IMG/VR virus record: IMGVR_UViG_3300005613_000050
Coordinates: 4,927 to 68,926 of that record
From: a virus
Strand: one strand, 5' to 3'
Length of the DNA: 64,000 nucleotides
The notes beneath the pieces were generated by a model. It saw only the letters and a list, made by a program, of their open reading frames with translations. It was not told the DNA's origin and searched no databases. Numbering within the stretch: the first letter of the stretch is position 1; every line of letters starts with the position of its first letter. Positions 1,534 through 61,998 of this stretch are shown here, piece by piece. The position numbers were made by a program, and so were the translations under genes.

Positions 1534-2922
1534 ATGAAGACTTTGAGTTACCAAATCAAATGGATCGGTGCTAATGACGTAGATGCGCTTGTTCCCGAAA
1601 AATGGGCGATGGAAGGTCTTGCTCTGCTTCACGAGAATATGGTTGTTAAGCACCTTGTTCACACTGATTATAGTAATGAGATTCAGCGTGAAGGCGATAC
1701 CGTAAACACCCGTAAACCGAGCACCTTTACTGCTATCCGTAAGACTGATGCAGATACGGTCACGGTTCAGGATGCTACTGTAACGAATATTCCTGTCCTC
1801 CTCGATCAGCACCTGCACACTTCGTTCCTTATTAAGGATGGCGAAGAGAGTAAGTCGATGAAGGATCTCGTTGCTGAGTTCCTGCAACCTGCTATGCTTA
1901 GTATTGCTTCTCGCGTCGATCTCATGCTTCTTGGTCAGTTTCCGCGCTTTATGTCTAATGCTGCGGGTAGCCTTGGTACGCTGACTTCAACGACTGCGAA
2001 ACAACGTATTCTTTCTGCCCGTCAGGTCATGAATGATCTTAATGTTCCTGTTCAAGATCGTAACATGATTTGGAATACTGCTTCGGAAACGTCTGTACTT
2101 GATACCGACTTGTTCTTGAGTGCTGAACGTGTTGGTGATGATGGTACGGCTCTCCGTGATGCGAGTCTTGGTAAGAAGCTTGGTTTCAACCACTTCATGT
2201 GTCAGAACATGGCGAACATTGCTACTGGTTCGACTGCTGTGACTGGTGCTGTGAATAAGAGTGGTGGTTATGCTGCTGCAAGCACAACTATTGTTGTTGA
2301 TGGTTTCAGTGCTGCCATTACTGCCGGTTCTTATGTGACAATCGCTGGTGATATGATTCCTCGCCGTGTTGCTTCGACTGTTGGTGGTGCAACCCCGACG
2401 ACTATTGTTCTTGCTACTGGTCTGACGAGTGCTGTCGCTAATGATGCAGTTGTGACTGTCTATACTCCGGGCGCTGTGAATCTCAGTGGCGGTTATGCTG
2501 TTGGTTATGGTGGTAAGATTGCAGTTGATGGTTTCACTATTGCACCGAAAACTGGTCAGATTATTGCATTCGGTGACAGCACGACCACTGATTATTACAC
2601 TGTTATGGCGGCGACGACCACTCAGATTGAGCTTGATCGTCCTCTGGCTACTGCTATCAGTAATGATGATGCAGTCTGTGTCGGTCCTGCGGGAGAATAC
2701 AACTTCTTCTTCCGGCGTAATGCGATCTCGTTCGTGAACCGTCCTCTTGCTCTGCCCCGTACTAATGCAGGTGCTTTGAGTGCAGTCATGGACTATGAAG
2801 GTATTGCGCTTCGTATCGTTATCACTTATGATGGTGATAAGCAGGGTCACTTGGTCACGTGTGATACCCTCTGTGGTGTTGCACAATATGATAGTGATGA
2901 AGGTGGCGTATTGTTCGGTTAA
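1534..2922 (+). CDS. Major capsid protein, P22 coat-like HK97 fold with duplicated insertion domain
   Basis: ALVPEKWAMEGLALLHENMV, GDTVN, LGKKLGFNHFMCQN, C-terminal CDTLCG; optimised codon usage; followed by terminator. Confidence 0.9.
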   Translation: MKTLSYQIKWIGANDVDALVPEKWAMEGLALLHENMVVKHLVHTDYSNEIQREGDTVNTRKPSTFTAIRKTDADTVTVQDATVTNIPVLLDQHLHTSFLIKDGEESKSMKDLVAEFLQPAMLSIASRVDLMLLGQFPRFMSNAAGSLGTLTSTTAKQRILSARQVMNDLNVPVQDRNMIWNTASETSVLDTDLFLSAERVGDDGTALRDASLGKKLGFNHFMCQNMANIATGSTAVTGAVNKSGGYAAASTTIVVDGFSAAITAGSYVTIAGDMIPRRVASTVGGATPTTIVLATGLTSAVANDAVVTVYTPGAVNLSGGYAVGYGGKIAVDGFTIAPKTGQIIAFGDSTTTDYYTVMAATTTQIELDRPLATAISNDDAVCVGPAGEYNFFFRRNAISFVNRPLALPRTNAGALSAVMDYEGIALRIVITYDGDKQGHLVTCDTLCGVAQYDSDEGGVLFG

Positions 2923-2933
2923 GTTACTAACTC

Positions 2934-2970
2934 AGATAGGGGAGTCTTTAAGACTCCCCTATCTACTTTT
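2934..2970 (+). terminator. Intrinsic terminator after coat gene
   Basis: AGATAGGGGAGTC-TTTAA-GACTCCCCTATCT then ACTTTT. Confidence 0.85.
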
Positions 2971-2982
2971 AAGGATATAACA

Positions 2983-3405
2983 ATGTCTGATTATTTATAT
3001 AAAAGATCAGCACGTAAAATATTATACAGATTATCACGGCAGTACGGCACACAAGTAACATTCTCTCGTATTTTAAGCAAAACAAAAGATTTTGAAACAG
3101 GTGAATTTGTATATACAACTGAAGCAGAGACAGTAAAACGAGGTATATTACTTCCTTTGAAAATGAGTTCGTTATACTCGTATGATCTAACTTTCTTAGC
3201 TGCAAATAAAAACTTCCAATATGGGGCTAATTACGATGCGGGTTTACGATATATAATTATAGATCAGCGAGATATAACATTTGATGTTGGGCTACAGGAG
3301 TTTTGTTATATTGGTAGCATAAAGTATGAGGTATTATCTTTTGAAGATTTTGCGCCTTCAATAGCTCAAATTGCACGTATAAGACTGACACAGAATAGGG
3401 AGTAA
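2983..3405 (+). CDS. Head closure/stopper protein
   Basis: Position after coat; beta-rich; DFETGE motif. Confidence 0.55.
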   Translation: MSDYLYKRSARKILYRLSRQYGTQVTFSRILSKTKDFETGEFVYTTEAETVKRGILLPLKMSSLYSYDLTFLAANKNFQYGANYDAGLRYIIIDQRDITFDVGLQEFCYIGSIKYEVLSFEDFAPSIAQIARIRLTQNRE

Positions 3406-3408
3406 CAA

Positions 3409-3624
3409 ATGGAAATATTTTTTGGTTTAGCTTCAACAATAATTTTGGGGCTTATTGCAGTTATATATGCTAATTTAAATTCCAATGTTAAACAACTTTG
3501 GAAAGTTTTAGACGACATAAAATATGAATTTGCAAAATTGAGTAAGGCTCTTGTTGAACAAGAACTCCAAAATGAAAAACGTTTTGTAACGAAAGAAGAA
3601 TGTAAGAGTTGTCGTGGGGATTGA
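3409..3624 (+). CDS. Small membrane-anchored coiled-coil protein
   Basis: N-terminal TM helix, coiled coil, FVTKEEC ending; RBS GGGAG. Confidence 0.55.
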   Translation: MEIFFGLASTIILGLIAVIYANLNSNVKQLWKVLDDIKYEFAKLSKALVEQELQNEKRFVTKEECKSCRGD

Positions 3625-3649
3625 GTTATTAACTTAAGGAGTAAACAAT

Positions 3650-3892
3650 ATGAATCTTAGGTTCTGCTACTCAAAAGACGAGTTAGAAATATACTGGATC
3701 GTTTGCGCGAATCAGGCTGATTGTGATTCACTATCAAACCTTTATATTCCTAACAAGTTAAACGACACAGGCGACCCAGACACATTCGCCGTGACTAATT
3801 ACATGGATGTTTCTGGTGATGATATTTTCTGCCTTTACGGTTCGCGTACTAAGTATGTTGATGTTCTTGATAGTGAAATAAAGGAGATATGA
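3650..3892 (+). CDS. Hypothetical protein
   Basis: AAGGAG RBS, ATGA overlap with next gene. Confidence 0.55.
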   Translation: MNLRFCYSKDELEIYWIVCANQADCDSLSNLYIPNKLNDTGDPDTFAVTNYMDVSGDDIFCLYGSRTKYVDVLDSEIKEI

Positions 3893-5484
3893 TGGCTTGG
3901 AGTTCTGGGTTGCAAACAAACCTTATATCTCTTCACGAGTTTGACACTACAAATGAGACTAATCTTGGGGTGCCAACTGTAGGCACCTATAACGCGACAA
4001 ATGTTAACGGTGTTTTATATTCAAAGATAAAGGAGGGCACTGCTTGCCATGTGAACGGTGGATTAACATCATACCTTGAGTCAACTACCGCCCCATCTGT
4101 TAGTACAAATTTCTCGTTTAGTATGTGGCTTAGACAGACAGCCGGATTATCCGTAACCTACAGCTATATATCAAAGACTCAAACAAACAAAGAATTCTTG
4201 GTTTACTCTGATACTGTAGGAAATTTAATATTTCAACTTTTCTTGGCTGGTGGTCAGGTTGCAGCAGTATCACAGCCAATAGTACGTAATGCAACATATC
4301 ATATTGTTGGGACATGGGACTCATCTGTCGGAACGAAATTATATATTAATAACGGAACCCCAGCTGCGACCGCTTATACTGGTTCGTATAATTCTGGCGT
4401 TTCGTCTACGCTCCAAATTGGTGCGCGAAATGGTGGTCAAGTTGGTAACGGGTGGATCGGTCAAGTAGCGTTTTGGAATAGGACTCTATCTGCTTCAGAC
4501 GTTGCGGAGCTATACAATAGCGGTACTATGTTGCCGTATGTTGACTCACCTACAGACGATCAAATATTAGAAGCTGCAGGAGGCAACTACCACGATCCAG
4601 AAAATAGCGAAGTCCTAAAGGATGCACGGGTAGGCGTTGCTCCTCGTGTCGGCACGTTTGATGAAGCGGCACGTAATATCGACCCACTTGAAGAAAATGT
4701 TAAAGATGGTACAGCTTATAAGATTCTTAATGCAGATAAAACAGGTTCATTAGCTACAGGGCTTTTAACTCCTGCATTATCTATTGACGGGAACTTATTA
4801 GCAACAATAAGTAACAGCGAAACAGATTATGAGAATCATTTGAGTATACTTAAAGTTAGTAACTCAAAGTGGCATACAATCGGTTCGAGAACAGGGGATG
4901 GCACCTTACAGATTGCGGGTTTATCGGCAGGTGATTATACTGCTAGGGTAATGTCTATAGGGTCGCCCGGAACTGTTAGTGATAGCGTTGCATTTAGTGT
5001 GTCGGGGGATGCGCTTAATGGCGGCGTTAATGCTAACTGGGGGAGATGGATTTATGCCTCTATATGTAAACATTTCAATACTCATAGAGGGGATTATACT
5101 ATGTTTGTTGAAGGCGAGGAGAAGGACATTAGAGGGAATTCATCTTATTTTGAATTACGCGTAGATGGTCCTTATTATACGCAAAGCATGCACGGTTTTT
5201 GGGATTGTAGAATCGAGATAAACACTGTCTTTACTTTTGCAAATAAAGATAATGTTTTTTATGCTCGTGAGTTTGCAGATAAGCTAGCATCAATATTTAC
5301 TACTATTAGTTGTTATCGTTATGGTAATGGTATTTATGATGATGATACACTTTTAGGCTGTTTACAACCTATAGAAGGGTATAGGGAAAAGTTACAAATT
5401 AGTCAGTTTGGTGTTATGCCTAATGCTGAGGTACAGCAAGGCTCGATAGAAAGGCATTACAAGATGGAATTAGCGGAGGAATAA
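3889..5484 (+). CDS. LamG/ConA-domain protein fused to a probable tail terminator domain
   Basis: FSFSMWLR, YHIVGTWD, LYINN, IGQVAFWNRTLSASDVAELYN (LamG); C-terminal ~150 aa from NANWGRWIYASI lies directly before the major tail gene. Confidence 0.6.
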   Translation: MMAWSSGLQTNLISLHEFDTTNETNLGVPTVGTYNATNVNGVLYSKIKEGTACHVNGGLTSYLESTTAPSVSTNFSFSMWLRQTAGLSVTYSYISKTQTNKEFLVYSDTVGNLIFQLFLAGGQVAAVSQPIVRNATYHIVGTWDSSVGTKLYINNGTPAATAYTGSYNSGVSSTLQIGARNGGQVGNGWIGQVAFWNRTLSASDVAELYNSGTMLPYVDSPTDDQILEAAGGNYHDPENSEVLKDARVGVAPRVGTFDEAARNIDPLEENVKDGTAYKILNADKTGSLATGLLTPALSIDGNLLATISNSETDYENHLSILKVSNSKWHTIGSRTGDGTLQIAGLSAGDYTARVMSIGSPGTVSDSVAFSVSGDALNGGVNANWGRWIYASICKHFNTHRGDYTMFVEGEEKDIRGNSSYFELRVDGPYYTQSMHGFWDCRIEINTVFTFANKDNVFYAREFADKLASIFTTISCYRYGNGIYDDDTLLGCLQPIEGYREKLQISQFGVMPNAEVQQGSIERHYKMELAEE

Positions 5485-5485
5485 T

Positions 5486-5992
5486 ATGTATGAAATTAAA
5501 TGGGTTGGTGCTCAAATTGAAATGAAGAACACCATTTTAAAAATTAAAGATGGTGGAGCAAATGAGTTACAGATCAAAATTGGTGAAGGTACTTTAACAT
5601 ATGACGAAAAACGTAACATGGAATATGTTAAAGATCGTGGAGTTTTGGATAGTGTCCGTGAAGGTGATGAAGAAGCAATGGATGTTTCTTTTGAGTTTGT
5701 TTGGGAACAACTCACGGCAGTATCGACTTCTGGTTCTGGTACACCTACAATTGAAGATGCACTTAAACAGCGTGGTGAAGCTTCTGGTTGGGTGACGACT
5801 TCTTCGGATGAGTGTGAGCCTTATGCAGTTGATGTTGAGGTTGTTCATACACCGAACTGTGGGTCTGAATCTGCAGAAACCATTTTACTTCCTGATTTCC
5901 GTTGGACGAGTTTGGCTCATGATCTTAAAGCAGGTACTGTGGCAGTATCTGGTCGGTGTAATGCAAAAGAAGCAACTATTACACGTGCATAA
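5486..5992 (+). CDS. Major tail (tube) protein
   Basis: 168 aa beta-rich protein before the frameshifting chaperone and tape measure gene. Confidence 0.65.
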   Translation: MYEIKWVGAQIEMKNTILKIKDGGANELQIKIGEGTLTYDEKRNMEYVKDRGVLDSVREGDEEAMDVSFEFVWEQLTAVSTSGSGTPTIEDALKQRGEASGWVTTSSDECEPYAVDVEVVHTPNCGSESAETILLPDFRWTSLAHDLKAGTVAVSGRCNAKEATITRA

Positions 5993-6002
5993 TTCTTTTT
6001 TG

Positions 6003-6033
6003 TTCCCACCTGAGTTACTAACTCAGGTGGGAA
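6003..6033. promoter_or_regulatory. Perfect 15-bp-arm inverted repeat centred on the dispersed palindrome
   Basis: TTCCCACCTGAGTTA-C-TAACTCAGGTGGGAA; no U-tail on either strand. Confidence 0.7.
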
Positions 6034-6053
6034 AACCCTTATGAGGAGTAGAT

Positions 6054-6509
6054 ATGAAAATTGGCGGTAAAGTAATTGAAGGTAGTTATGTTGAAATTAT
6101 TCCTGTAATTCGTGGCGAAGAAGAAATCATTTTTAAAGCACAGCCTGTATGTGACTATGATGATTTCAATAAGGTTTGTCCAGAACCTACACCCCCTACG
6201 ACAATGAAGCCCGGTGGCGAACAAGGTATTGATCTTAAGAGTCCTGTTTTCCTGGAGGCAATGAATAAACACGCGGAGAAAAAAGCTAATTGGATGTTCC
6301 TTAAAGCCCTCGAACCTACTGAAATTGAATGGGATACAGTTAATATGGCTGATCCAGATACTTTTGAGAATTGGGAGAAGGAACTTAAAGGCCTTAAGTT
6401 TACTGAGTATCAGATTATTACTCTTAAGAATGGTATTTGGGCGGCTCAAGGTTTAGACACTGATAAGATTAAGGCGGCAAAAGAAAGTTTTTTAGCTTCC
6501 GCTCAGTAA
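6054..6509 (+). CDS. Tail assembly chaperone (gpG-like)
   Basis: Position; slippery T TTT TTA near 3' end. Confidence 0.75.
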   Translation: MKIGGKVIEGSYVEIIPVIRGEEEIIFKAQPVCDYDDFNKVCPEPTPPTTMKPGGEQGIDLKSPVFLEAMNKHAEKKANWMFLKALEPTEIEWDTVNMADPDTFENWEKELKGLKFTEYQIITLKNGIWAAQGLDTDKIKAAKESFLASAQ

Positions 6510-6709
6510 AGGCTGAGCATACAGTAATACCAAAAGGTAGAACAGGTATTTATTTACAATGGAGAGCGTGTGAGCGTATGGGTGTACGCCCACACGCTGT
6601 TAAGGAAAATTGGGAGGATAATAGCGTCTGGGAACAGGCAATGCTGCTTGCATATGAGGAGTTAAGAAGCTATGAAGATTCGGGTGCAGACACGGCTGAA
6701 AGGCGTTAA
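6488..6709 (+). CDS. -1 frameshift extension of tail chaperone (gpGT-like)
   Basis: In-frame T_TTT_TTA at 6488-6494, hairpin GCTCAG/CTGAGC at 6501-6518, -1 frame open to TAA at 6709 (SFRSVKAEHTVIPKGRTGIYLQWRACERMG...). Confidence 0.8.
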   Translation, partial: FFSFRSVKAEHTVIPKGRTGIYLQWRACERMGVRPHAVKENWEDNSVWEQAMLLAYEELRSYEDSGADTAERR

Positions 6710-7181
6710 AATTAAACCCATCAACCTTGATGATATTATGTGGGAAATACTTGACACATCAGCTAAGGTTTTGATTACTGAGGTGGCTCATAGAATACCT
6801 GTTTGGACGGGTCAAGCCGTTGGTAGTTTACTACCAGCGGCAAGACTCTTAAAGAAAGTTAAAATTGATTTTAGTCTTTTTCAGCAAAATGGAACCTATG
6901 CTAATTCAACTAAGAACTGGCGTACTGGAGCACAACAAGGTGAAGCAGATAGATTTAAGACTGGTAAAAAATATATTTTTAATTTTGACTCTTCACTTAT
7001 TGACTACATGGTAGAGAACGAACATATAGATCAAGAAGATGTAAATAATAGTTTTCAACGTGAGAGAGCATGGAGAATATTTGAAGAGATAACCCCTAGT
7101 GTGCAAGAATATATAGATGCATTTGTAAAGTGGAAATTTAAAAATGTATTTTCAGGGGCATATGTTGGGAGAGCATTATGA
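6672..7181 (+). CDS. Tail completion protein, HK97 gp10-like
   Basis: IPVWTGQAVGS resembles the PVxTGxL motif. Confidence 0.45.
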   Translation: MKIRVQTRLKGVKIKPINLDDIMWEILDTSAKVLITEVAHRIPVWTGQAVGSLLPAARLLKKVKIDFSLFQQNGTYANSTKNWRTGAQQGEADRFKTGKKYIFNFDSSLIDYMVENEHIDQEDVNNSFQRERAWRIFEEITPSVQEYIDAFVKWKFKNVFSGAYVGRAL

Positions 7182-10100
7182 GTGATTTTGGTGGTCGCAT
7201 TGAATTCCAATTAGGGACATCTATAAAAGATATAGGGGAGTTAAGCGAAGCTCTTAAGTTATTAAATGAAAAAATGTCAGAGCTTGTAACTAAATCACAA
7301 GCTGTTACTGATGCTTTTAATCAAGCTAAAACAGTTGCTAAACTTGAGAAAACACTTGAGAAATTAGCTAAAGCCGAAGCTAAAGTGCTTGAAGAACAAA
7401 AGAAAACAAGCGCGGCATTGAAAAATGCTAAAGCACTTTATACAGATAAGATTGCATCTGTTAAAAAACTAACTGATACATATGATGCTACTAATACAAA
7501 AATAAAAGAAACCAATACATATCTTTTAGATAATAACAGTGTACTTAAAGAAAACCTTAAAGTCTTAGAAGATGGTACGACAGAACTTAAAAGCTATAAT
7601 GTAGCTACAGAGGATCAAGTTCAAGCTAAAAAGAAACTAGAAGCAGCAGAGAAGAAAGCTAATAAAGAGACTCTAAGTGGTATAAAAGGCATACAGCGTT
7701 TAATGTCTTTTACAAATAAATTAGTTAAAGGCGAAAATGAAGCTTCAATACAAAAAATTAAATTAGCTAGAACAACAAGAGAACTTAATGCTGCAGAAGA
7801 TAGCCAAAGTAAACAGTGGGCTACTATGGTTACTCAGGCTAATAAATTAAATAGAGCATACGATCGTGCTGCAAAAATTAAGGCTAAAGAGCATGATGAA
7901 GCTATACGTCTTAATAGGGCTTATGATGCTAATACTCAATTACAAAAGCGTTTAACCTCTAATAAGATTAAAAATGTTCAAGTTACTAACTCATATAATG
8001 CAGCACTTGGTAAAGAGACAATAACCTATAAAGGTGTAACATCAGCGGGTAAACAGTATGTTGCAACAGTAACTAAAGTTAATGGTGTTGTTACAAATGT
8101 TACATCAAGAACTAAAGATGCTAATGCCCAATTAGATGAACAAAAGAAACGCCTAACTAAATTAACATTATCTTGGGCGACTTTTGCTCGTATTGCCGCA
8201 GTACAACTTATACATCGTGCTATAAGTCGTATTACAATGGAACTTCGTGAAGCAACAATATCAGCTAAAGACTTCTCTCTACGTATTGCTGAAATCCAAA
8301 CAATCTCTCAACGTAATCAATTAAGTACAGAAGCATGGGCAGAAGGACTTAAAGAAGTATCTAATAATTTAGGCATTGATGTTCTCGATCAAGCTGAAGC
8401 AGCTTATCAGGCTTTATCTAACCAGATTACTGAAGGCGCTGAGACCTTTGAGTTTCTAACTCAAGCAAGTAAGTTCGCTATAACAACAGTATCTTCATCT
8501 GCTGACTCAGTTAAACTCTTATCTGCTGCTCTCAATGCTTATGAATTAGGTATTGAAGATACTAATAAGGTCGCTGCAAACTTCTTTAAGACGATTGAGT
8601 TAGGTCGTATACGCTCTTCGGAACTTGCAGATACTTGGGGTAAGGTCGCTGTACCTGCTCGAACACTTAATATTCGTATGGAAGACGTTAATGCGTCATT
8701 AGCATTTATGACAATTAATGGTATTAAAGCTGATGAAGCAATGACTCTACTCCGCAATATTGTTCTTAAGTTAATTAAGCCTTCGACTGAGATGAAGAAT
8801 CTCTTTAAAGAGCTTGGAGTATCTTCTGGCGAAGCCGCTATCGCTACCTATGGTTTTGGCGGTTTTATGGCGGAGCTTGAGAAACGAACGAAAGGCAGTA
8901 CCACAGAGCTTGGTAAATTCTTTACTCGTCAGCGAGCATTAACAGGTGCTACACTCTTTGCAGGTAAAGGTTTAGAGAAATATAATGCAACCCTTAAGGA
9001 ACTTATAGCAGGGGAAGCTGATTATGCTAAAGCTAATGAGATTGCCTTAAATAATGTGGGTCGTAAATGGGAGATCTTAGGTACTAAAACCAAGAACTTC
9101 TTTTTAGATTTTGGCGACCTTATTGTCAACAGCACTATTTGGTGGGCAGACTTCTTAGGTGTTTTTGATGATATTAAAATAGCACAGGATTTAGAAAAAG
9201 AATATGCCATACTCCGTAAAGCAAACCAAAAACTAATAGACTCAAATGCTAAAGTTGTTGACGCTTATATTCGCGGGCTTAATCTTGAGGTAGCACAAGC
9301 AAATATAGCTAATAATAAAATTATCGACGCTAATAAAAAGCGTATTGGTATTCTTAAAAAATCTTTTGATGGTTATAAAAGTTATATTGAAGGCGGGTAT
9401 AAAGCCTTAATCGAGACTACTAAAAATCAAATAAAAAGTTTCGCATCTGAAATTGAAGCTATTGAAGCCGGAGGTAAGAAGTTTGAGCAGTTCATTAAAA
9501 GCATACAGATTAGTACCGAAAAACAAATCTTTGAATTCGAGCTAGAAGATAAATCAGTATCAAGACAAATTGATGCAGTAGGCGAGAAATATAGAGAGAC
9601 AATAGAACGAGCAAGAGCAACAGATTTATTTGATCCCGATACAGCTATACAAGAACTTAATAGAGCTAGAGAGTTAGCAACTCAAGGTATCAATCTAACA
9701 CGTCAAGTAAATAAAGAAAACAAGAAGGTTGAAGCTGAACGAACAAAACTTATTAAAGGGCGTAATAAGCTTGAAGTAGCGAAACAAAAAATTATTGATG
9801 CTTATAATCTTAAAATCTTTAATATAGAATCTTACACTACAAAAACAATTAAAGAACGAGCAAAACTAAAAGAAGATGCTAATAAAGAGCTAGCTAAACA
9901 GCTAGAAGATAATAATAACAAGCAAGAAACTTTTGAAAAGAAGTTAGCAGGTATCAAAGCAACAAATATTTCTCAAGAATTTACTGACTATAAACAAGTT
10001 TATGAAGATCTTAATGATGTAATTAAAGGTATACGTGAGCGTCAACAAGAAGCTGAGAAAAAACGTATCGAAGAACTTGGAAAATTAAAAGCTGAGCAGA

Positions 10101-11332: not shown

Positions 11333-11337
11333 GATAA

Positions 11338-53688: not shown

Positions 53689-53699
53689 AAGGAGAAATA

Positions 53700-54880: not shown

Positions 54881-54981
54881 TCATACGAGTTACCAACTCA
54901 AAACAGATAAGTATATTATTAAAGGGAACCCTTATCATATTAAGAAACTTTTGAAAATGACGGAAGGGAGATTCTGGCAAT

Positions 54982-55290: not shown

Positions 55291-55523
55291 AGATTGACGA
55301 ATACATTAAGCTCAAAGACCCTAAAGATATTATGGAAGGGTTATTAAAAGAATTACGCGATAAAGTTATTAACTTAAAACGTGATGCCGCAGTCAAACGG
55401 GCTATGAATCTGATTGATAAGAAATGGCGTTCTATAGCCAAGAGACGTATGCTCAGAGAAAATGGTTTCTCTAGTACTATTGAGTTCTATTATCCGGAGG
55501 TTTATAAACGATGGAAAAAGTAA
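55287..55523 (+). CDS. Hypothetical protein
   Basis: GGAGG RBS, ATGA overlap. Confidence 0.55.
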   Translation: MKIDEYIKLKDPKDIMEGLLKELRDKVINLKRDAAVKRAMNLIDKKWRSIAKRRMLRENGFSSTIEFYYPEVYKRWKK

Positions 55524-55688
55524 TGTTAATTGATCGTAATGGCTTTTGCAAATATTGTGAATTACCTAAAGATCAAAATTATGCTAAAGTTAAGTTACTA
55601 ACTCATTATGGTAAAGAGATGGTTGTTACGTTTAATATGACTAAAGATAAGTTGCATAATATGAGAGTATTTAAGGAGGATTACTAAT

Positions 55689-55985
55689 ATGATGATTATT
55701 GATTTCCAAGAGCGTATTGAGAAACATCCCGATCTTAAGATTATTGGTTATAAAGATTTTAAGATTTATGTTGACCATAAAGGTCAGGTTAGTAGTGTAT
55801 CAGGGACGTGTGTTGAAGAGAATTTGTGGGTTGATCTTGAGGCTGTTTTAACTGGTCAACGAGAACCTGATGCTCTTTATCATATGAGCCGTGTTGTTGG
55901 TTATTATAGTCGGATTGAGAACTGGAATGATAGTAAGCAAGGCGAACTTAAAGATCGTCATAAAGGAGATTATAATGTTGGTTGA
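55689..55985 (+). CDS. Standalone NrdD-like C-terminal glycyl-radical domain
   Basis: SRVVGYYSRIENWNDSKQGELKDR. Confidence 0.75.
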   Translation: MMIIDFQERIEKHPDLKIIGYKDFKIYVDHKGQVSSVSGTCVEENLWVDLEAVLTGQREPDALYHMSRVVGYYSRIENWNDSKQGELKDRHKGDYNVG

Positions 55986-56163
55986 ACTTAAAGATGGTAC
56001 TGTATTGAAAAGTGAATCTACTTTTAAGAGTCTTAAAGACGTTGTTGATGAGTTAGTAAGTCAATATGGTGTTGGTCAAATTATTAACGCTATTGATGAT
56101 TGCGATGAAGTTCTTGATTCTCTTGAAGATGAAGAAATTAAACTGTATATGGAGGGGATGTAA
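55975..56163 (+). CDS. Small acidic hypothetical protein
   Basis: AAGGAG RBS. Confidence 0.5.
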   Translation: MLVELKDGTVLKSESTFKSLKDVVDELVSQYGVGQIINAIDDCDEVLDSLEDEEIKLYMEGM

Positions 56164-56501
56164 TGCTTAAGATTCTTATGGCAGTTATTATTGTTGTTCC
56201 TACAGTAACGGCAGAAACAGTTAGTAAAGAATTTAAAGAAAATGAGATTACAGCAGAAGAAAAATATAAGAAACAAGAATACATTATTACTGGTGTTGTT
56301 AAGTCTGTATCTAAAGGTACTGAGGAAGGTACAGCCGAAGTTTGTACGGAAAGTTTGATCTATATTGTTGTGCCACTTAAAGCTAATAAAAAAGTTTTGG
56401 TGGCTTTGAAAGCCGGAGACAAAATATCCTGTAAATGTAGGTTTAGTAGTAATCTCATTTCGCCTGAATTTAAAGGCAAGGAGATCAAAAATGTCAAATA
56501 A
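56163..56501 (+). CDS. OB-fold (tRNA_anti-like) exported protein
   Basis: KEFKENEITAEEKYK..ITGVVKSV..LKAGDKI. Confidence 0.65.
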   Translation: MLKILMAVIIVVPTVTAETVSKEFKENEITAEEKYKKQEYIITGVVKSVSKGTEEGTAEVCTESLIYIVVPLKANKKVLVALKAGDKISCKCRFSSNLISPEFKGKEIKNVK

Positions 56502-56922
56502 AGTTATTAAAAATATAGTAGATATGGATGCTTGGGAAGAGTATCAAAATAAAAATACTGATCCTTACGGTGCTGCTTGTGTTACAGTTGCTCGGAATGT
56601 TATGTTGTATTTAGATGAGAATCCAACAGAATTTGAACTTGGCTATTCTCCTAATATGAAAACTACTCACGGTATTATTTGTCACTGTGATACTGTAGGT
56701 GGAATAACAGGATTTATGGCTGGCTATGTTACAACTATGGTTTCAAGATGCTATAAGGATGGATGGAAATTTCTTCTTGCTGATACTCTTGTTGGTTGTA
56801 ATATGACTGATGAACATATTAAAAAGGCTATTAAGAGTTCTATGGCGGTGGTTTTGAAGCAAATGCAAGACACTATGCTTGAGTATGTTAATTCTCTTAA
56901 TGTGGGAGATCAAAAATGTTGA
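56491..56922 (+). CDS. Hypothetical protein
   Basis: NTDPYG..GITGFMAG; AAGGAG RBS. Confidence 0.6.
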   Translation: MSNKVIKNIVDMDAWEEYQNKNTDPYGAACVTVARNVMLYLDENPTEFELGYSPNMKTTHGIICHCDTVGGITGFMAGYVTTMVSRCYKDGWKFLLADTLVGCNMTDEHIKKAIKSSMAVVLKQMQDTMLEYVNSLNVGDQKC

Positions 56923-57131
56923 ATGATGAAGCCTTGAAAAAATTGTGTGCAGCAACAGGTAAAGAAGAAATGGAGATGCTTGAAGAGGCGACTTTTGATT
57001 CTGTAGCTGATGCTATCTGCGTTGAGTGTGGTTATACTACAGTTATGGAACCTGACCAAGATCGGGGTTGGTGTGAAGAGTGTGAGAAGAACACAGTTAA
57101 AAGTTGTCTGATACTTGCGGGGATGATTTAA
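56916..57131 (+). CDS. Small Zn-ribbon protein
   Basis: ICVECG..EPDQ..GWCEEC. Confidence 0.65.
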   Translation: MLNDEALKKLCAATGKEEMEMLEEATFDSVADAICVECGYTTVMEPDQDRGWCEECEKNTVKSCLILAGMI

Positions 57132-57988
57132 TGAAAAAAATGGGTTTTCATGGGATTTCGTCGGATAGGGTTTATGCCAAGGGCATAGTATATTGTGAGC
57201 ATATAGTAACAGAAAAATGTAATTTTCATTGCTCATATTGCAATAGGCTCTGTGCCGGAGATGACCTATCTTTTAACGGAATAATTAGTTTATTTGATAA
57301 GATTGCAGGATGTAAGTTTTACCATATCACAGGAGGCGAGCCTACAACCAGAAGCGATATTGTTGATATTGTAAAAGAGGCTAATAGCCGTTTCGATATG
57401 GTTCGTATGTCTACAAATGGTTCAGCACCAAAAAAGGTTTACCAAGATATTGTTGATGCTGGGTGTAAGTCTTTTGCTATATCGCTTGATCGAGGTCAAG
57501 AAATGTTTAATCATGTTGTGGATATAATTAAGTTTCTTTCTGATTATGATGTACAGATCGGGACTGTTGAAGCCGACTCGGACATGATAAAATTTATTTA
57601 TAGCCTTGGTGTTAGCGATATAAAAATAGGAACGGCGAGCCAGAACAAAACGTCTATTGTTGATGTTGATGTTTTGCCAACAACTCCGATAATGAAATAT
57701 CGTATTGACAGGTTTAGGCGTGGCTTAGGTATGCGAGGAACTCTCATTTCAGATCGTTGTTATTTATGTGAAACAGACATAACAATAAAAGGGAACAAGC
57801 ATTATCCGTGCGCCGTTTATATGCGAGAGGGCGGTAACGCTATAGGTGATATGTCAGATGATTTTATGCAAGAGCGAAAAGATTGGTCTATTAGGCACAA
57901 CACAAAGAACGATACGATATGCTCTAAATACTGTATGGACTTCAAGTGTGACTTTAACGGGGAGTGTATGAATGAAACAATCTGTTGA
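57131..57988 (+). CDS. Radical SAM enzyme (MoaA-like core, Cys-rich C-terminus)
   Basis: CNFHCSYC, TGGEPT, STNG, ISLD. Confidence 0.88.
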   Translation: MKKMGFHGISSDRVYAKGIVYCEHIVTEKCNFHCSYCNRLCAGDDLSFNGIISLFDKIAGCKFYHITGGEPTTRSDIVDIVKEANSRFDMVRMSTNGSAPKKVYQDIVDAGCKSFAISLDRGQEMFNHVVDIIKFLSDYDVQIGTVEADSDMIKFIYSLGVSDIKIGTASQNKTSIVDVDVLPTTPIMKYRIDRFRRGLGMRGTLISDRCYLCETDITIKGNKHYPCAVYMREGGNAIGDMSDDFMQERKDWSIRHNTKNDTICSKYCMDFKCDFNGECMNETIC

Positions 57989-58526
57989 GTTAATAACTTA
58001 TACGCCTGATCCTGAGAGTGTTATCGAGCGTTGTGGTAGAATCTGTTATCTTAGTGAGTGTAAAGATGCAGGTGCTTTTGTTCGTATGATCTTGAAGCGT
58101 GGGCATGAATCGGTGCTAGAACACGCATCAGCTACGTTCCAGATTATTACAGATCGCGGCATATCTCATGAGATTGTTCGTCATAGGTTGGCGAGTTATT
58201 CTCAAGAGTCAACACGTTTCTGTAAATATAAGGAACTTAATTTCATAGAACCTGCAGAACCAAATTTTGAATGGCTTTATGCCTGTAAGGCTGCTGAGAA
58301 AGCTTATAAGAGCATGATAGCTGATGGTGTTGCGCCACAATTTGCTAGAGACGTATTGCCTATGAGTCTAGCGACTAAGGTGGTTATGACGGCAAATTTT
58401 AGAGAGTGGCGTCATTTTATTAAGTTACGTAGTGCTAAAGATGCTCACCCTAAGATTCAAGAAGTTAGTAACTTAATTTTGGAAGAGTTAAAGAGTATTG
58501 CACCTAATTGTTTTGGAGGATTATAA
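57972..58526 (+). CDS. thyX: Flavin-dependent thymidylate synthase
   Basis: GHESVLEH, HEIVRHRLASYSQESTR, NFREWRHFIKLR..AHP. Confidence 0.95.
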   Translation: MKQSVELITYTPDPESVIERCGRICYLSECKDAGAFVRMILKRGHESVLEHASATFQIITDRGISHEIVRHRLASYSQESTRFCKYKELNFIEPAEPNFEWLYACKAAEKAYKSMIADGVAPQFARDVLPMSLATKVVMTANFREWRHFIKLRSAKDAHPKIQEVSNLILEELKSIAPNCFGGL

Positions 58527-58825
58527 TGCGTAATTTGTTTAAAAACCTTCGAGAAGGTAAAATACTAAAACTTGTTAAGAAATATGACCACTGGGTGATT
58601 AGGCGGTTTATGTCGGGTATGTTAAGTGATACTTTTATAATTGATAAATATTTTAATGTCCCTAAGAGTGTTGATACTATTTATATTAGTATTGTTAAGT
58701 ACCACCCACAAGGCGTTAAAATAGATGCTGAATTTCTAGAACAATGTAAAAGATGGAATCAATGTCGTCGGTATTTTGATGAATGGCGGAATGGTCGCTC
58801 TGGTTATCTTGTTGTACGTTATTAA
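58526..58825 (+). CDS. Hypothetical protein
   Basis: TAATG coupling, GGAGG RBS. Confidence 0.55.
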   Translation: MRNLFKNLREGKILKLVKKYDHWVIRRFMSGMLSDTFIIDKYFNVPKSVDTIYISIVKYHPQGVKIDAEFLEQCKRWNQCRRYFDEWRNGRSGYLVVRY

Positions 58826-58838
58826 TAGGAGAAAAATA

Positions 58839-59771
58839 ATGCGTGAAGTACGTTACTTATCACCAACCTCTGTTAAGAAGTATCTTACAGACCGTGAACA
58901 ATTCTTTATTGATTACATGGCTGATGAGCGTGAGGATCGTATGCCTCAGACTCAAGCCATGTCAGTTGGTTCAGCTTTTGATGCTTATGTTAAAGCCTAT
59001 TTATATAAGGAGCTTGCTTGCGGGAGTGATGCTGCGTTTGAGTTAGCAACTCTTTTAGAAACACAAGTAGAACCACATAATCTTGATTTCGCCCGTGAAG
59101 CAGGACGTAAATGTTTTGATGCTTATAAGGGCTTTGGTTGTATAGCTGATCTCATGCTTATGCTGACAGCCGGTACTAATCCACGCTTTGAGTTTACGCT
59201 TGAAGGTTCTATTGATCCTGTTACTATGAAGCTTGGAGACTCTGGGGTGACGCTCTTAGGCAAGCCGGATATGCACTTTATTAATAAAGACGGGTGTGGT
59301 GTCATACTGGACTGGAAAGTTAATGGCTATTGTTCTAAGCGTAAGCCCTCTCCAACACGTGGTTACTTGAATATGGTTCCTCAAGGCAAGTCGCATAAGG
59401 ATGCTATACCTGGATATATTAATGGCGTATTGTGTAATATTGCTTGCTACTTGGATACAGGCTCTGAGGACTGGGGGCGCCAATTGGCTATATATGGTTG
59501 GCTAATGGGTGAGGCTGTTGGTAGTGAGTTTATTACGGGTATCGACCAGTTGGTTTGTTGTAATGGTACGATACATGGTGTTGCTCAGCATCGCTCACGT
59601 ATTAATCCTGCTTATCAGCACGCTCTATTTGATAATGTCTGTGACATATGGAAACGAACAAGAGAAGGCGGTCACTTCTTTGATGATATGTCCTATACTG
59701 ATTCAATCGAAAGGTGTAAGGTTCTTAATGGCAGCTTCGGAGAGCCTATGGACTTTAGGCGGGAACTATAA
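58839..59771 (+). CDS. PD-(D/E)XK exonuclease (RecB-like)
   Basis: YLSPTS, GSAFD, GKPD, ILDWK, QLAIY. Confidence 0.8.
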   Translation: MREVRYLSPTSVKKYLTDREQFFIDYMADEREDRMPQTQAMSVGSAFDAYVKAYLYKELACGSDAAFELATLLETQVEPHNLDFAREAGRKCFDAYKGFGCIADLMLMLTAGTNPRFEFTLEGSIDPVTMKLGDSGVTLLGKPDMHFINKDGCGVILDWKVNGYCSKRKPSPTRGYLNMVPQGKSHKDAIPGYINGVLCNIACYLDTGSEDWGRQLAIYGWLMGEAVGSEFITGIDQLVCCNGTIHGVAQHRSRINPAYQHALFDNVCDIWKRTREGGHFFDDMSYTDSIERCKVLNGSFGEPMDFRREL

Positions 59772-59793
59772 GTTACTAACTTAGGAGAATAAA

Positions 59794-60054
59794 ATGCACG
59801 ACAAAGACTTTAACATGCTTGAACACCGTGCGAAACGATGCACAACACATCACTATGGATGTGATTGCCGAGAATACGAACGGATAAAGGCTTTAAGAAA
59901 AGTAGAAGAGCAAGCAGAAGAGATCGAGCGGTTGCTTAAGGGGATACACCTTCTCGGCGCGATGTGCGGCAATCCGCATTCCGGTGATGAAGCGTGTCGG
60001 TTGATTTTGAAGAAGTGCAAGGAACTTAAAGCCCAAGCGGGCTGGGAGGCGTGA
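59794..60054 (+). CDS. Hypothetical protein
   Basis: CTTHHYGCDCRE motif; AGGAG RBS. Confidence 0.6.
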   Translation: MHDKDFNMLEHRAKRCTTHHYGCDCREYERIKALRKVEEQAEEIERLLKGIHLLGAMCGNPHSGDEACRLILKKCKELKAQAGWEA

Positions 60055-60452
60055 TGAGCGAACAATCGGTAGTGGGTACAACTGCATTAGCACATGGAGA
60101 CACTCTTAATTTTCTTCACCGTTCCAGAGATGATGTTAAAGTACATGAAGACACAGAGAGTGCCCAGCAAGCTATCAACGAAGCAACGGCGGAGAAGGAT
60201 AAAGAGATTGAACAGTTGAAGGCAAGACTTATAAAAGCCCATGTATGTCCGGACTGTTTGGCCGAGACAGGAGGTGAAGTGATGAATAATTTTATTATGC
60301 CCGCGGCATATGGAGTCTTAACAGGTTTATCTATAAACATATATGCTAAGCTATATAAATATGACTGTGATTTAAAAGTTTATGCACTATTTTGTCTTTG
60401 TGTCTCTCTTGCGTTATATGGTAATTGCATGATGCAGATTGGTAAGAGATGA
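60051..60452 (+). CDS. Hypothetical protein (mosaic, C-terminal TM segment)
   Basis: ATAEKDKEIEQLKA module; internal GGAGG RBS before MNNF. Confidence 0.55.
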   Translation: MMSEQSVVGTTALAHGDTLNFLHRSRDDVKVHEDTESAQQAINEATAEKDKEIEQLKARLIKAHVCPDCLAETGGEVMNNFIMPAAYGVLTGLSINIYAKLYKYDCDLKVYALFCLCVSLALYGNCMMQIGKR

Positions 60453-60742
60453 TTGGTTGGGTTAGGCGCGGTAAACGGGTTAAACACTTTAAAATAGTTG
60501 GCGACTATATTACTGTGCCTAAAGGTTCTTCGCCTACTGCGGTGCTTAGTTGGTTAGGCTGTAGGGTCGAGGTAGGAAAAGGTAGGTTATGTTGGTGCAA
60601 GATTCTTAAGCCTAAAGGTGAGAAGTTACTAACTCGTTGTAAATATTATAAAATAAAAGGAGGTGTAAATCATCTTAGAATCTTGAAGTATTTGAACAAA
60701 GGAAAAAATGTTGGTTACATAAAAACGTGTAAGCCCGTTTAA
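60449..60742 (+). CDS. Basic hypothetical protein
   Basis: ATGA overlap; last gene before terminator. Confidence 0.45.
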   Translation: MIGWVRRGKRVKHFKIVGDYITVPKGSSPTAVLSWLGCRVEVGKGRLCWCKILKPKGEKLLTRCKYYKIKGGVNHLRILKYLNKGKNVGYIKTCKPV

Positions 60743-60750
60743 ACGAAATA

Positions 60751-60787
60751 AAAGGATACCCCTACCTTGGGGTATCCTTTCCTTTTA
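60751..60787 (+). terminator. Intrinsic terminator ending the right arm
   Basis: AAAGGATACCCC-TACCTT-GGGGTATCCTTT-CCTTTT. Confidence 0.85.
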
Positions 60788-61246
60788 ATGTTGCTCTACG
60801 GGCATTGTAGGTGCCTTAAACGGCAAAATAAGAGCAGGGTTCTGGGCGTTTTTACGCTCGATTTTGATGGAAAATAGCAGTATCCTGTAAGTCCTTATAT
60901 ACCAACAGTCTAAGTGGCTTTTTTTCAAAAATCTTATAACTCCTTGTCAGGCAAAGGGTTGAAAAAACTACTCGAAAGTGGAAAATCTATTGTTATATAT
61001 ATAAATTTTTATTTTTTCCTCTATATTAAAGGATATTTAGAAAAAAGATAGACTTTCCAAGTCCTTGTCAGAACTAGGGTTATGAGACTACGACAAACGT
61101 TTGAAATAGAACTCATTGCTATATAAGGACTTACAAGAAAAAAAGATAGTTATTACATAAATGTATCAGAAATTTCGGCGAAACGCTATAAATAGGCATT
61201 TGTAAAATTAGGCATTTGTAAGATGTATATATAAGAGTTTATAACT

Positions 61247-61405
61247 TAAGAATATTAGGTCTATGGCTCTTAGAATATTAGGTCTATGGTTCTTAGAATA
61301 TTAGGTTCTTAGAATATTAGAATATTAGGTTCTTAGAATATTAGGTTCTTAGAATATTAGAATATTAGAATATTAGGTTCTATAGCTCTAAGGGTATTAG
61401 GTTCT
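61247..61405. repeat. Degenerate TTAGAATA/TTAGGTTC 8-mer array
   Basis: Direct reading. Confidence 0.9.
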
Positions 61406-61619
61406 TGTAGCTCTATTCTGTTGAGTTAATAACTTGTTGAAAAAATAAATTTTTATCAGATTTTTCGCCGAAAAAGGCGTTTTGCTAGTCGATTGGCACT
61501 TTGTAAGAACCGTAGAACCCTATTTTATAGGCAAAAGTTCACTATATTTAGGCTCAAGAACTCATATTTAGGCTGTAAGAACCGTAGAATATAGAACTTG
61601 AGTTACTAAATTCTATGTG

Positions 61620-61760
61620 CTATCAGGCTATCAGGCTGTTAGGCTGTTGAGTTATCAGGCTGTTAGGCTGTTAGGCTGTTAGGCTGTTAAGTTATTAAGC
61701 TGTCAGGCTGTCAGTCTCAGGCTGTCAGGCTGTCAGGCTGTGCTGTCAGGCTGTCAGGTT
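61620..61760. repeat. (C/T)AGGCTGT 8-mer array
   Basis: Direct reading. Confidence 0.9.
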
Positions 61761-61801
61761 GTTGAGTTACTAAATTCTACGGTTCTGACAGCCTAACAAC
61801 C

Positions 61802-61866
61802 TATAAATATATAAATATATAAATATATAAATATATAAATATATAAATATATAAATATATAACTAT
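61802..61866. repeat. ATATATAA 8-mer array (about 7 copies)
   Basis: Direct reading. Confidence 0.92.
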
Positions 61867-61998
61867 AAAACACAGCCCACCCACCCACCGACCCGCTTCT
61901 CCCTTACGTTCAAGGGAACCAAAAAGTTAGTAACTTAAATTAAATTTACGTTTGAGTTAATAACTCAAAATATGGTGGATCGTGTCAAAATGACACTG

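What the first reader, a model, noticed from the sequence alone, without database searches (positions are those of the whole stretch)
2921..61966. Genome saturated with one 13-bp palindrome, RAGTTA-N-TAACTY
Seen: about 50 exact copies and about 25-30 single-mismatch copies counted by eye, roughly one per kb. A rough random expectation for 64 kb at ~65% AT is below 0.1 exact copies. Copies lie inside essential genes (tape measure, tail tip, primase, sigma, ThyX), at gene boundaries, in terminators and near promoters. In genes they use the two stop-free frames, giving recurring peptides [EK]L[VLI]T[QHYL] and [EKR]V[TSIN]N[SLF]. Established: dispersed palindromes of this size are used by ParB/parS, Noc/NBS, MatP/matS and SlmA/SBS, and many-site repressor binding is known from mycobacteriophage stoperators; this sequence matches none of the consensuses I know. 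Inference: a binding site kept genome-wide by selection, for coating, compacting, localising, protecting or silencing the phage chromosome.
Basis: partly seen in the sequence, partly recalled or inferred. Interest (0 to 1): 0.9.

Follow-up and report, generated by a model that had tools for sequence, protein, structure and literature searches.

The report
Phage-wide docking sites for its ParB
An uncultured 69-kb phage writes one short DNA palindrome about once per kilobase through its whole genome, genes included, and comparison with related phages indicates these are docking sites for the phage's own ParB-type DNA-binding protein, whose sequence preference has shifted together with all the sites.

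Summary
RAGTTANTAACTY occurs 53 times exactly in the window (0.05 expected) and 86 times with up to one mismatch (1.67 expected). It occurs 58 times in the whole 68,926-bp phage record. Synonymous-codon shuffles destroy about 38 of the 40 copies that lie within genes.

The phage encodes two ParB/Noc/KorB-family proteins: ParB1 (34704-35720) and ParB2 (39718-40569). I found no ParA, integrase, methyltransferase or Tet/JBP gene.

Phages with ParB1 homologues carry their own, different palindromes, often clustered just upstream of parB1. In several lineages these are spread at 0.7-1.2 per kb. The sister phages use TGATTTANTAAATCA. Seven of 33 mappable sites in this phage sit in register at the same gene positions as sister-phage sites (0.5 expected). 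So old sites were kept while one symmetric base switched from T to G. This genome has 58 new/new, 13 hybrid and 1 old/old site; the sisters have none of the new type.

Best reading: genome-wide loading sites of a phage ParB. ParB1 is favoured and ParB2 is not excluded. The system would work like KorB and its operators on plasmid RK2, but far denser. Binding and function are inferred, not shown.

This scan has noted the same phenomenon on other phage DNA. In print I found only the unexplained Cluster O mycobacteriophage repeats.

The parts
2921..63619 (.). Dispersed array of the palindrome t-R-A-G-T-T-A-N-T-A-A-C-T-Y-a: 53 exact and 33 one-mismatch copies in the window. Density is about 0.9 per kb in the virion-gene third (1-27.3 kb) and about 1.6-1.7 per kb in the rest.
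   Evidence: list and chance expectation; logo; codon shuffles. The densities were counted from the list.
34704..35720 (+). ParB1, 338 aa, ParB_N plus HTH_ParB. It is the favoured reader of the palindrome. Its family has an invariant DGLxR where canonical ParB has GERR.
   Evidence: PF02195 E 4e-12; PF17762 25.3 bits against a cut-off of 22.6. (best solved relatives Spo0J, Noc, KorB). (invariant columns). (AF2 pLDDT 91.8; Foldseek top hits ParB/Noc/KorB). (site clustering and co-occurrence).
39718..40569 (+). ParB2, 283 aa, ParB_N plus HTH_ParB. Its family keeps G-x-R-R and E-N-x-x-R, the canonical CTP-pocket motifs. It is the alternative or second reader.
33866..34695 (.). Cluster of 4 exact copies (33866, 34378, 34435, 34517) and 1 one-mismatch copy (34683) in the divergent control region between the primase/helicase gene and parB1.
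   Evidence: The same placement is seen in relatives: 70 sites within 600 nt upstream of parB1 against 15.8 expected, over 24 records.
61235..62120 (.). Second cluster: 3 exact and 4 one-mismatch copies interleaved with tandem-repeat arrays in a 1.5-kb non-coding region.
31134..33854 (-). Primase/helicase-like gene (DUF5906 / VapE-like), divergent from parB1. It is present beside parB1 in all 73 related loci and holds three of the in-register conserved sites.

Best explanation
The palindrome is the recognition (loading) site of a phage-encoded ParB/Noc/KorB-family protein that binds as a symmetric dimer. ParB1 (34704-35720) is the more likely reader.

About 90 sites, roughly one per kb, let the protein occupy the entire phage chromosome. 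Nucleation clusters lie in the control region upstream of parB1 and in the repeat-rich non-coding region at 61-62 kb.

By analogy with KorB, a CTP-dependent clamp that loads at OB sites and slides up to about 1.5 kb, dense sites would give continuous coverage. The purpose could be chromosome-wide silencing or timing of transcription, organisation, or marking and protection of phage DNA.

Shown: the enrichment, selection on the DNA sequence, the ParB genes, lineage-specific motifs, and positional conservation with a concerted motif switch. Inferred: binding, which paralogue binds, sliding, and the purpose.
For: 1. Selection on DNA. 58 copies against about 0.07-0.2 expected. Synonymous shuffles keep about 2 of 40 genic copies.

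2. Candidate readers. The only sequence-specific DNA-binding domains found were ParB1, ParB2 and a sigma-like protein. This rests on about 80 reading frames scanned against Pfam or PHROGs and a six-frame search (2 ParB_N matches). Both ParBs match Spo0J/Noc/KorB by sequence and by fold.

3. Lineage-specific motifs. 27 of 74 ParB1-bearing records have at least 4 copies of one palindrome with 10 specified bases, and the motif differs between lineages. Whole-record counts:
- TGATTTNNNAAATCA: 60 in 84.4 kb, 50 in 69.1 kb, 13 in 59.7 kb.
- TGATTNNNNAATCA: 67 in 54.4 kb.

4. Placement. Sites pile up upstream of parB1 (70 observed against 15.8 expected over 24 records) but not upstream of parB2 (8 against 10.7).

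5. Co-occurrence. Among ParB2-centred loci of at least 18 kb, 14 of 41 with a ParB1 gene have a palindrome with at least 5 copies, against 0 of 12 without one (Fisher P 0.023, not corrected for relatedness).

6. Orthologous positions. 7 of 33, 7 of 36 and 6 of 34 mappable sites lie within 15 nt of a site of the sister phage's own motif. Random expectation is 0.49-0.55, and 0 of 300 randomisations reach the observed value. Against the distant G004 the figure is 3 of 18 (0.59 expected, P 0.02). Most offsets are exactly 0.

7. Concerted switch. This genome has 58 G/G, 13 hybrid and 1 T/T site. The sisters have 44, 39 and 14 T/T sites, 0 G/G and at most 1 hybrid. 13 of the 33 one-mismatch copies carry the ancestral base at that position.

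8. Spacing. It is more even than random in G001, G002 and G004 (CV 0.63-0.70 against 0.98, P at most 0.002).

9. Analogue in print. KorB is a CTP clamp that loads at OB and reaches promoters up to 1.5 kb away (PMC11790492, passages). There are twelve OB sites on the ~60-kb plasmid, conserved in sequence and position in R751 (PMC13768133, passage).
Against: - No binding data exist. The phage is uncultured and its host is unknown.
- The recognition-helix comparison does not settle which ParB reads the site. For ParB1: L058 and L062 have identical ParB2 helices but different motifs. For ParB2: L036 and L052 share a motif with ParB1 helix identity 0.31 against 0.69 for ParB2. In one search, L006 and L071 combine unusual ParB2 helices with unusual motifs.
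- ParB1's family lacks the GERR arginine pair of CTP-binding ParBs, so a sliding-clamp mode for ParB1 is doubtful.
- In this genome itself the spacing is not significantly even (CV 0.85, P 0.16 for exact copies; 0.84, P 0.05 with one mismatch). G003 with one mismatch is clustered (CV 1.46).
- Many relatives with both ParBs show no dispersed palindrome (47 of 74 records, many of them short). The genes alone therefore do not predict saturation.
- The control region upstream of parB1 is also the upstream region of the primase/helicase gene, so clustering there does not single out ParB1.
- The ParB1 branch of this phage is only slightly more diverged than other proteins.
Confidence: 0.65

Rival explanations
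1. ParB2 (39718-40569), the paralogue that keeps the canonical CTP-pocket motifs, is the reader and clamp. ParB1 would have another role, for example local autoregulation or replication control.
For: - The ParB2 family keeps invariant G66, R69 (R68 nearly invariant) and E101-N102-x-x-R105.
- Its recognition helix (WVQ[IV]R) is conserved across phages whose half-sites mostly share TGAT/GAT.
- This genome's ParB2 uniquely reads WAQVR, and its motif is unusual.
- L036 and L052 share a motif with more similar ParB2 helices than ParB1 helices.
- Copies flank the parB2 start (39519, 39743).
Against: - There is no site enrichment upstream of parB2 over 24 records (8 against 10.7 expected).
- L058 and L062 have identical ParB2 helices but different motifs and spacings.
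- L033 shares the GAGTT half-site with this genome yet keeps WVQIR.
- 0 of 12 ParB2 loci without ParB1 have a repeated palindrome.
Confidence: 0.2
2. Another protein reads the sites: the adjacent primase/helicase (as distributed origin or helicase-loading signals), an unannotated phage protein, or a host factor.
For: - The clusters lie in the shared upstream region of the primase/helicase gene, which accompanies parB1 in 73 of 73 loci.
- They also lie in a repeat-rich region that looks like an origin.
- About 1-kb spacing recalls Okazaki-fragment length (inference).
- Most small proteins have no family assignment.
Against: - Perfect dyad symmetry of 13-15 bp is the signature of ParB/KorB-type HTH dimers (solved relatives).
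- No DNA-binding domain was detected in the primase/helicase beyond DUF5906/VapE.
- The motif changes between closely related phages, which fits a phage-encoded reader better than a host factor.
Confidence: 0.1
3. The palindrome is a target for DNA modification or a restriction-related signal. For example, it could guide a ParB-activated base-modifying enzyme.
For: ParB-like proteins activate phage thymine dioxygenases (PMC13229309, abstract). ParB-fold fusions to methyltransferases are common in phages (PMC12704722, passages).
Against: - The genome has no N6_N4_Mtase, DNA_methylase or Tet_JBP match at E up to 1.
- The dioxygenase-associated ParBs lack an obvious DNA-binding domain (PMC13229309, abstract), whereas both ParBs here carry HTH_ParB.
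- Enrichment, rather than avoidance, of a palindrome is not what restriction pressure gives (established knowledge).
Confidence: 0.03
4. It is not a protein site at all: a miniature mobile element, a recombination artefact, or an RNA or DNA structural element.
For: One copy is embedded in a 31-bp perfect palindrome that could fold.
Against: - Only 13-15 bp are conserved and the flanks are random.
- Copies are in frame inside genes and conserved at orthologous codons.
- Arms of 5-6 bp with a 1-nt centre cannot form a stable hairpin (33 of 58 have arm 5 and 19 have arm 6).
Confidence: 0.02

Closest known systems
KorB and its OB operators on IncP-1 plasmid RK2 (with the clamp-lockers KorA and TrbA)
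   Same: - A ParB-family protein with ParB_N plus HTH (8qa8/8qa9 are among the sequence and fold hits).
- A short palindromic site scattered over a ~60-70-kb replicon.
- Sites conserved in position between diverged relatives (PMC13768133 passage; here).
- A plausible action range of about 1-1.5 kb from each site (PMC11790492 abstract).
   Different: - RK2 has twelve sites. This phage has 58 exact and about 90 in all, most of them inside coding sequence.
- There is no ParA/IncC homologue, and no KorA-like partner has been identified.
- There are two conserved ParB paralogues.
- The replicon is a phage with no integrase and no relatives inside 185,579 prokaryote genomes.
- The ParB1 family lacks GERR.
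17-bp dyad repeats of Cluster O mycobacteriophages (Corndog and relatives)
   Same: A ~70-kb siphophage with more than 30 copies of one perfect inverted repeat, between and inside genes. It is not obviously temperate, has no parAB system, and has a ParB-like domain protein in the genome. The function is unknown (PMC4351075, abstract and passages).
   Different: - The sequence differs (7-bp arms, 3-bp spacer) and the density is about half.
- The authors did not link the repeats to the ParB-like protein.
- No mycobacteriophage appears among the tblastn hits to ParB1 at E up to 1e-10, so any relation is analogy and not shown homology.
Chromosomal ParB-parS and Noc-NBS
   Same: The same protein family and fold. 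Palindromic sites. Noc uses many dispersed sites; the numbers are recalled, not from a call.
   Different: There is no ParA. Site density is orders of magnitude higher. It is a phage, not a chromosome. The motif has an odd length with a free central base.
Stoperators of Cluster A mycobacteriophages
   Same: Many copies of one short site spread over a phage genome, also within operons, read by one phage protein.
   Different: Stoperators are asymmetric and oriented with transcription, and are read by the immunity repressor of temperate phages (PMC4351075 discussion passage). The sites here are symmetric, and no integrase or repressor was found.

Membership tests
ParB/Noc/KorB family (protein) | ParB N-terminal domain (PF02195) above the curated cut-off | tested here: met
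   ParB1 46.5 bits and ParB2 34.7 bits against a cut-off of 26.3. The six-frame search finds exactly these two.
ParB/Noc/KorB family (protein) | ParB-type HTH DNA-binding domain (PF17762) | tested here: met
   25.3 and 31.2 bits against a cut-off of 22.6. The fold matches ParB, Noc and KorB structures with E 1e-9 to 1e-11.
ParB/Noc/KorB family (protein) | CTP-pocket motifs (GERRxRA box II, ENLQR box III; motif wording recalled, seen aligned) | tested here: inconclusive
   The ParB2 family keeps G-x-R-R and E-N-x-x-R as invariant or nearly invariant columns. The ParB1 family has an invariant D-G-L-x-R with a single arginine, and only Q/N in box III. Nucleotide binding was not tested.
ParABS partition system | A ParA/Soj-type ATPase partner | tested here: not met
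   No CbiA (PF01656) match at E up to 1 in six frames. None was seen among the about 80 reading frames scanned against Pfam or PHROGs. It is therefore not filed as a partition system.
ParB-site (parS/OB-type) DNA element | A 13-16-bp palindrome clustered at or near the parB gene, and varying with the ParB lineage | tested here: met
   clusters upstream of parB1 (70 against 15.8 expected), with different motifs in different ParB1 lineages.
ParB-site (parS/OB-type) DNA element | Direct, specific binding by the cognate ParB | not testable with these tools
   No protein-DNA prediction or experiment was available.
KorB-type global regulator | A clamp-locking partner (KorA/TrbA-like) and sites placed upstream of promoters | not tested
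   No KorA-like protein was recognised. The conserved 215-aa neighbour has no family. 15 of 58 copies lie within 25 nt of a start codon, but promoters were not mapped.
Stoperator system | Asymmetric sites oriented with transcription; the immunity repressor of a temperate phage | tested here: not met
   The sites are perfect palindromes. There is no integrase and there are no prophage relatives.

The most novel reading that the evidence does not exclude
This is a two-ParB chromosome-marking system.
- ParB1, with a degenerate nucleotide pocket and a fast-changing DNA-reading surface, nucleates at about 90 sites.
- ParB2, which keeps the canonical CTP motifs, is recruited or loaded there.
- Together they coat the whole replicating phage chromosome. 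This forms a private compartment or 'self' label that organises replication and packaging, or shields the DNA from nucleases.
- The genome-wide T-to-G switch then creates a new 'incompatibility group', so that co-infecting sister phages cannot read each other's DNA.
Probability: 0.2. Interest if true: 0.9.

Novelty: new variant of a known kind. Interest (0 to 1): 0.72.

Why it matters
ParB-family proteins are known as centromere binders and, in KorB, as long-range silencers with a dozen sites per plasmid. Here a probably virulent phage lineage with no ParA keeps 50-90 sites at about one per kb, written into essential genes at the cost of amino-acid changes. That implies a chromosome-wide role for ParB in phage infection that has not been described.

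This genome also offers a clean natural experiment in how a reader and its sites evolve together:
- The same ancestral sites, in register, carry T in three sister phages and G here.
- 13 hybrid sites appear to be intermediates.
- The specificity determinants could therefore be found by swapping a few residues between two homologous proteins.

The sites could also serve as orthogonal ParB/parS pairs for DNA labelling.

Tried and rejected
1. Cultured relatives. Megablast of 20 kb found none. tblastn of the tape-measure gene gave only hits below 30% identity. tblastn of ParB1 gave 4 weak hits.

2. Prophage relatives or host. The ParB1 profile against 185,579 prokaryote genomes confirmed no relative.

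3. Host abundance of the motif. All 80 listed stretches hold a single site, in unrelated taxa. This is inconclusive and does not show absence.

4. Close variants for a synonymous-site test. The metagenome scan returned only a contig identical to this genome over 21,014 bases. Public sequencing runs: none was listed, and no RNA holder was listed.

5. Third ParB paralogue, claimed in another first-reader note. A 311-aa frame runs across the terminal-repeat junction. Its two pieces have no Pfam match, phmmer with ParB1 and ParB2 finds nothing else, and the six-frame ParB_N search finds only two genes. Not supported.

6. Recognition-helix covariation to decide between ParB1 and ParB2: inconclusive.

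7. A universal ParB2 site. Palindromes shared by many loci (GCATCNNNNGATGC, TCTTGNNNNCAAGA) sit at fixed offsets inside conserved genes. They are therefore conserved codons, not sites.

8. Other over-represented palindromes in this genome (GATAGNCTATC, CTATANNTATAG) belong to the 50-bp tandem array at 62.1-62.6 kb.

9. The conserved 215-aa neighbour of parB1 has no Pfam, PHROG or Atlas lead (Atlas scores 0.80, which is chance level).

10. Accelerated ParB1 evolution on this branch: only a slight excess.

11. The ParB1 tree is the quick tree. The careful search did not finish in 300 s.

12. Complex prediction was not used. A pass for two ParB paralogues could arise from likeness to solved ParB dimers.

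13. Literature. Searches found no paper describing dense dispersed ParB sites in a phage, apart from the unexplained Cluster O repeats.

Full report
**What the window is.** The window is bases 4927-68926 of a 68,926-bp IMG/VR virus record with a 123-bp terminal repeat. GC is 37%, and genes run mostly on the + strand with one leftward block at 27.3-33.9 kb. It has no close cultured relative, no relative inside 185,579 prokaryote genomes and no tyrosine integrase. So it is an uncultured, probably virulent tailed phage of unknown host.

- RAGTTANTAACTY occurs 53 times exactly in the window against 0.05 expected. With up to one mismatch it occurs 86 times against 1.67 expected. It occurs 58 times in the whole record, and the pattern read backwards occurs 0 times.
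- All 58 AGTTANTAACT cores have R and Y flanks, and the symmetry extends weakly to t...a, giving a 15-bp site t-R-A-G-T-T-A-N-T-A-A-C-T-Y-a.
- Mismatches in the 33 near-copies fall almost only at G3/C11 (15 copies) and at the two bases beside the centre (17 copies). They never fall at R1/Y13, A2/T12 or T4/A10.
- In 300 synonymous-codon shuffles that keep every protein and each gene's codon usage, about 2 of the 40 genic copies survive. So the DNA sequence itself is selected.
- Genic copies use only the two frames without a stop.
- Copies are three-fold enriched in non-coding DNA (17 of 58 in 10% of the genome) and near gene boundaries (19 of 58 within 25 nt against 6.2 expected).
- Two clusters stand out. 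One has five copies in the divergent control region at 33.87-34.70 kb. The other has seven copies between the tandem arrays at 61.2-62.1 kb.

**Candidate readers.**
- Pfam and PHROG scans of about 80 reading frames found sequence-specific DNA-binding domains in only three proteins: a sigma-like protein and two ParB-family proteins. The two are ParB1 (34704-35720) and ParB2 (39718-40569).
- Each ParB has ParB_N plus HTH_ParB above the curated cut-offs. A six-frame search finds exactly these two.
- Their best solved relatives are Spo0J, ParB, Noc and KorB by sequence and by fold. The AF2 models have pLDDT 91.8 and 93.9.
- The genome has no ParA, no DNA methyltransferase of the two main families and no Tet/JBP dioxygenase.
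- A third ParB suggested in another note of this scan is not supported.

**Relatives.**
- A profile of ParB1 found 73 IMG/VR loci. They share a module: primase/helicase (divergent), ParB1, a 215-aa protein, an SNF2 helicase, ParB2, DNA polymerase A and VRR-NUC.
- None carries this genome's motif (0 AGTTANTAACT cores in the five loci counted; it is never the top palindrome). But 27 of 74 records have at least 4 copies of some other palindrome with ten specified bases. The types include TGATTTANTAAATCA, TGATTNNNNAATCA, GATTAWTAATC, TGAGTTYRAACTCA, GATG-types and TGATCNNNGATCA.
- In many relatives the copies are confined to the intergenic region just upstream of parB1 (for example L006 and L008). 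Over 24 records, 70 sites lie within 600 nt upstream of parB1 against 15.8 expected. For parB2 the figures are 8 against 10.7.
- In several lineages the sites have spread over the whole genome at a similar density. Whole-record counts are 60 in 84.4 kb, 50 in 69.1 kb and 67 in 54.4 kb. A further lineage has 24 in 20.8 kb.
- In those three whole records the spacing is more even than random (CV 0.63-0.70 against 0.98, P at most 0.002). In the window's own genome it is not significantly so (CV 0.85, P 0.16).

**The strongest evidence.**
- On a quick ParB1 tree this phage is sister to G001-G003, with support of 100. Protein identity between them is about 46-60%.
- I mapped this genome's sites through protein alignments onto the sister genomes. 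Seven of 33 (G002), 7 of 36 (G001) and 6 of 34 (G003) fall within 15 nt of a site of the sister's own motif. Random expectation is about 0.5, and none of 300 randomisations reaches the observed value.
- Against the distant G004, 3 of 18 do so (0.59 expected, P 0.02).
- The offsets are mostly exactly zero. This fixes the register: T-G-A-T-T-T-A-N in the sisters against t-R-A-G-T-T-A-N here. So the two motifs differ by one symmetric base, T to G at half-site position 4. The encoded residues change to match, for example D-L-x-N-Q to E-L-x-T-Q, read from the codons printed.
- Counting all four combinations, this genome has 58 G/G, 13 hybrid and 1 T/T site. The sisters have 44, 39 and 14 T/T sites, no G/G and at most one hybrid.
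- TGATT-type half-sites are the commonest across the family, so G is the derived state. An ancient set of sites has therefore been retained in place while its sequence was converted genome-wide. That is what a change in the specificity of a trans-acting reader predicts.

**Which ParB?**

For ParB1:
- Sites cluster upstream of parB1 and not parB2.
- Among ParB2-centred loci of at least 18 kb, 14 of 41 with ParB1 but 0 of 12 without it have a palindrome with at least 5 copies (P 0.023, uncorrected for relatedness).
- L058 and L062 have identical ParB2 recognition helices but different motifs.

For ParB2:
- It keeps the canonical nucleotide-pocket motifs, while the ParB1 family has DGLxR.
- Some same-motif pairs have more similar ParB2 helices than ParB1 helices. 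Two loci with odd ParB2 helices also have odd motifs.

I put ParB1 at about one half, ParB2 at about one fifth, and allow that both act together.

**Mechanism (inferred).** The nearest working model is KorB. It is a ParB-family CTP clamp that loads at OB sites and slides to reach promoters up to 1.5 kb away (PMC11790492, abstract and passages). It has twelve OB sites on the ~60-kb plasmid, conserved in position in a distant relative (PMC13768133, passage). A site every 0.7-1.3 kb would keep an entire, heavily transcribed phage chromosome within reach of such a protein. Whether the outcome is silencing, organisation, protection or self-marking cannot be told from sequence.

**What is known.**
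- Cluster O mycobacteriophages carry more than 30 copies of a 17-bp dyad repeat of unknown function and also encode a ParB-like domain protein. The authors did not connect the two (PMC4351075, abstract and passages).
- Surveys of the ParB fold in phages (PMC12704722, passages) and the ParB activators of phage thymine dioxygenases (PMC13229309, abstract) do not describe dispersed sites.
- Six literature searches found no description of this arrangement.
- Notes of this scan report similar 'phage-wide ParB docking sites' in other, unrelated phage genomes. None shares a look-alike of ParB1.
- New here: the density, the conserved pair of paralogues, and the in-register, genome-wide single-base switch with hybrid intermediates.

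**Verdict.** I file it as a new variant of the ParB-site / KorB-operator kind, not as a partition system. Confidence that a phage ParB reads the sites is 0.65. Interest is 0.72.

Noticed in passing
window 61200-62720: A 1.5-kb non-coding region packed with tandem arrays: 8-bp periods, a 30-bp unit x3, a 49/50-bp unit x8-9 holding GATAGCCTATC and CTATAAGTATAG palindromes, and a 62-bp duplication. Seven copies of the ParB-type site lie between the arrays. It looks like an origin or a centromere-like nucleation zone.
   Followed up: partly
window 63636-64000, continuing at G000:C1:124-694: A 311-aa reading frame runs across the terminal-repeat junction of the record. It has no Pfam match in either piece and is not detectably a ParB.
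   Followed up: partly
window 6003-6033: A 31-bp perfect palindrome (arms of 15) with a copy of the site at its centre, in the gap after the gene ending at 5992. It is a possible terminator-like hairpin that doubles as a site.
   Followed up: no
window 30146-30448 (-): A 100-aa protein matching the N-terminal domain of dATP/dGTP diphosphohydrolase (PF18909, E 3e-30). It is conserved in 11 related loci. No PurZ-like gene was looked for.
   Followed up: no
window 35747-36394 (+): A 215-aa protein directly downstream of parB1, conserved in 65 of 73 related loci, with no Pfam, PHROG or Atlas lead. It is a candidate partner of ParB1.
   Followed up: partly
window 55689-55985, 57104-57988, 57972-58526: A small protein with only the C-terminal glycyl-radical end of NrdD, a radical-SAM protein, and ThyX lie close together in the small-gene region.
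   Followed up: no
L258 (IMG/VR contig, 20.8-kb locus), also L257, L260, L261: A further lineage has 24 copies of GATTTNNNAAATC in 20.8 kb. Its ParB1 is 62% identical to that of L035, which uses GATG-type sites. This is another motif change between fairly close ParB1 proteins and would be useful for mapping specificity.
   Followed up: no
G003 (= L015 contig, 59.7 kb): It has only 13 copies of the strict 15-mer but 52 when the three central bases are left free, so the bases beside the centre are relaxed in this sister phage.
   Followed up: partly
window 56491-56922 (+): A weak, sub-threshold match to the Thoeris inhibitor Tad4 family (E 0.0037, 18 bits against a cut-off of 25).
   Followed up: no
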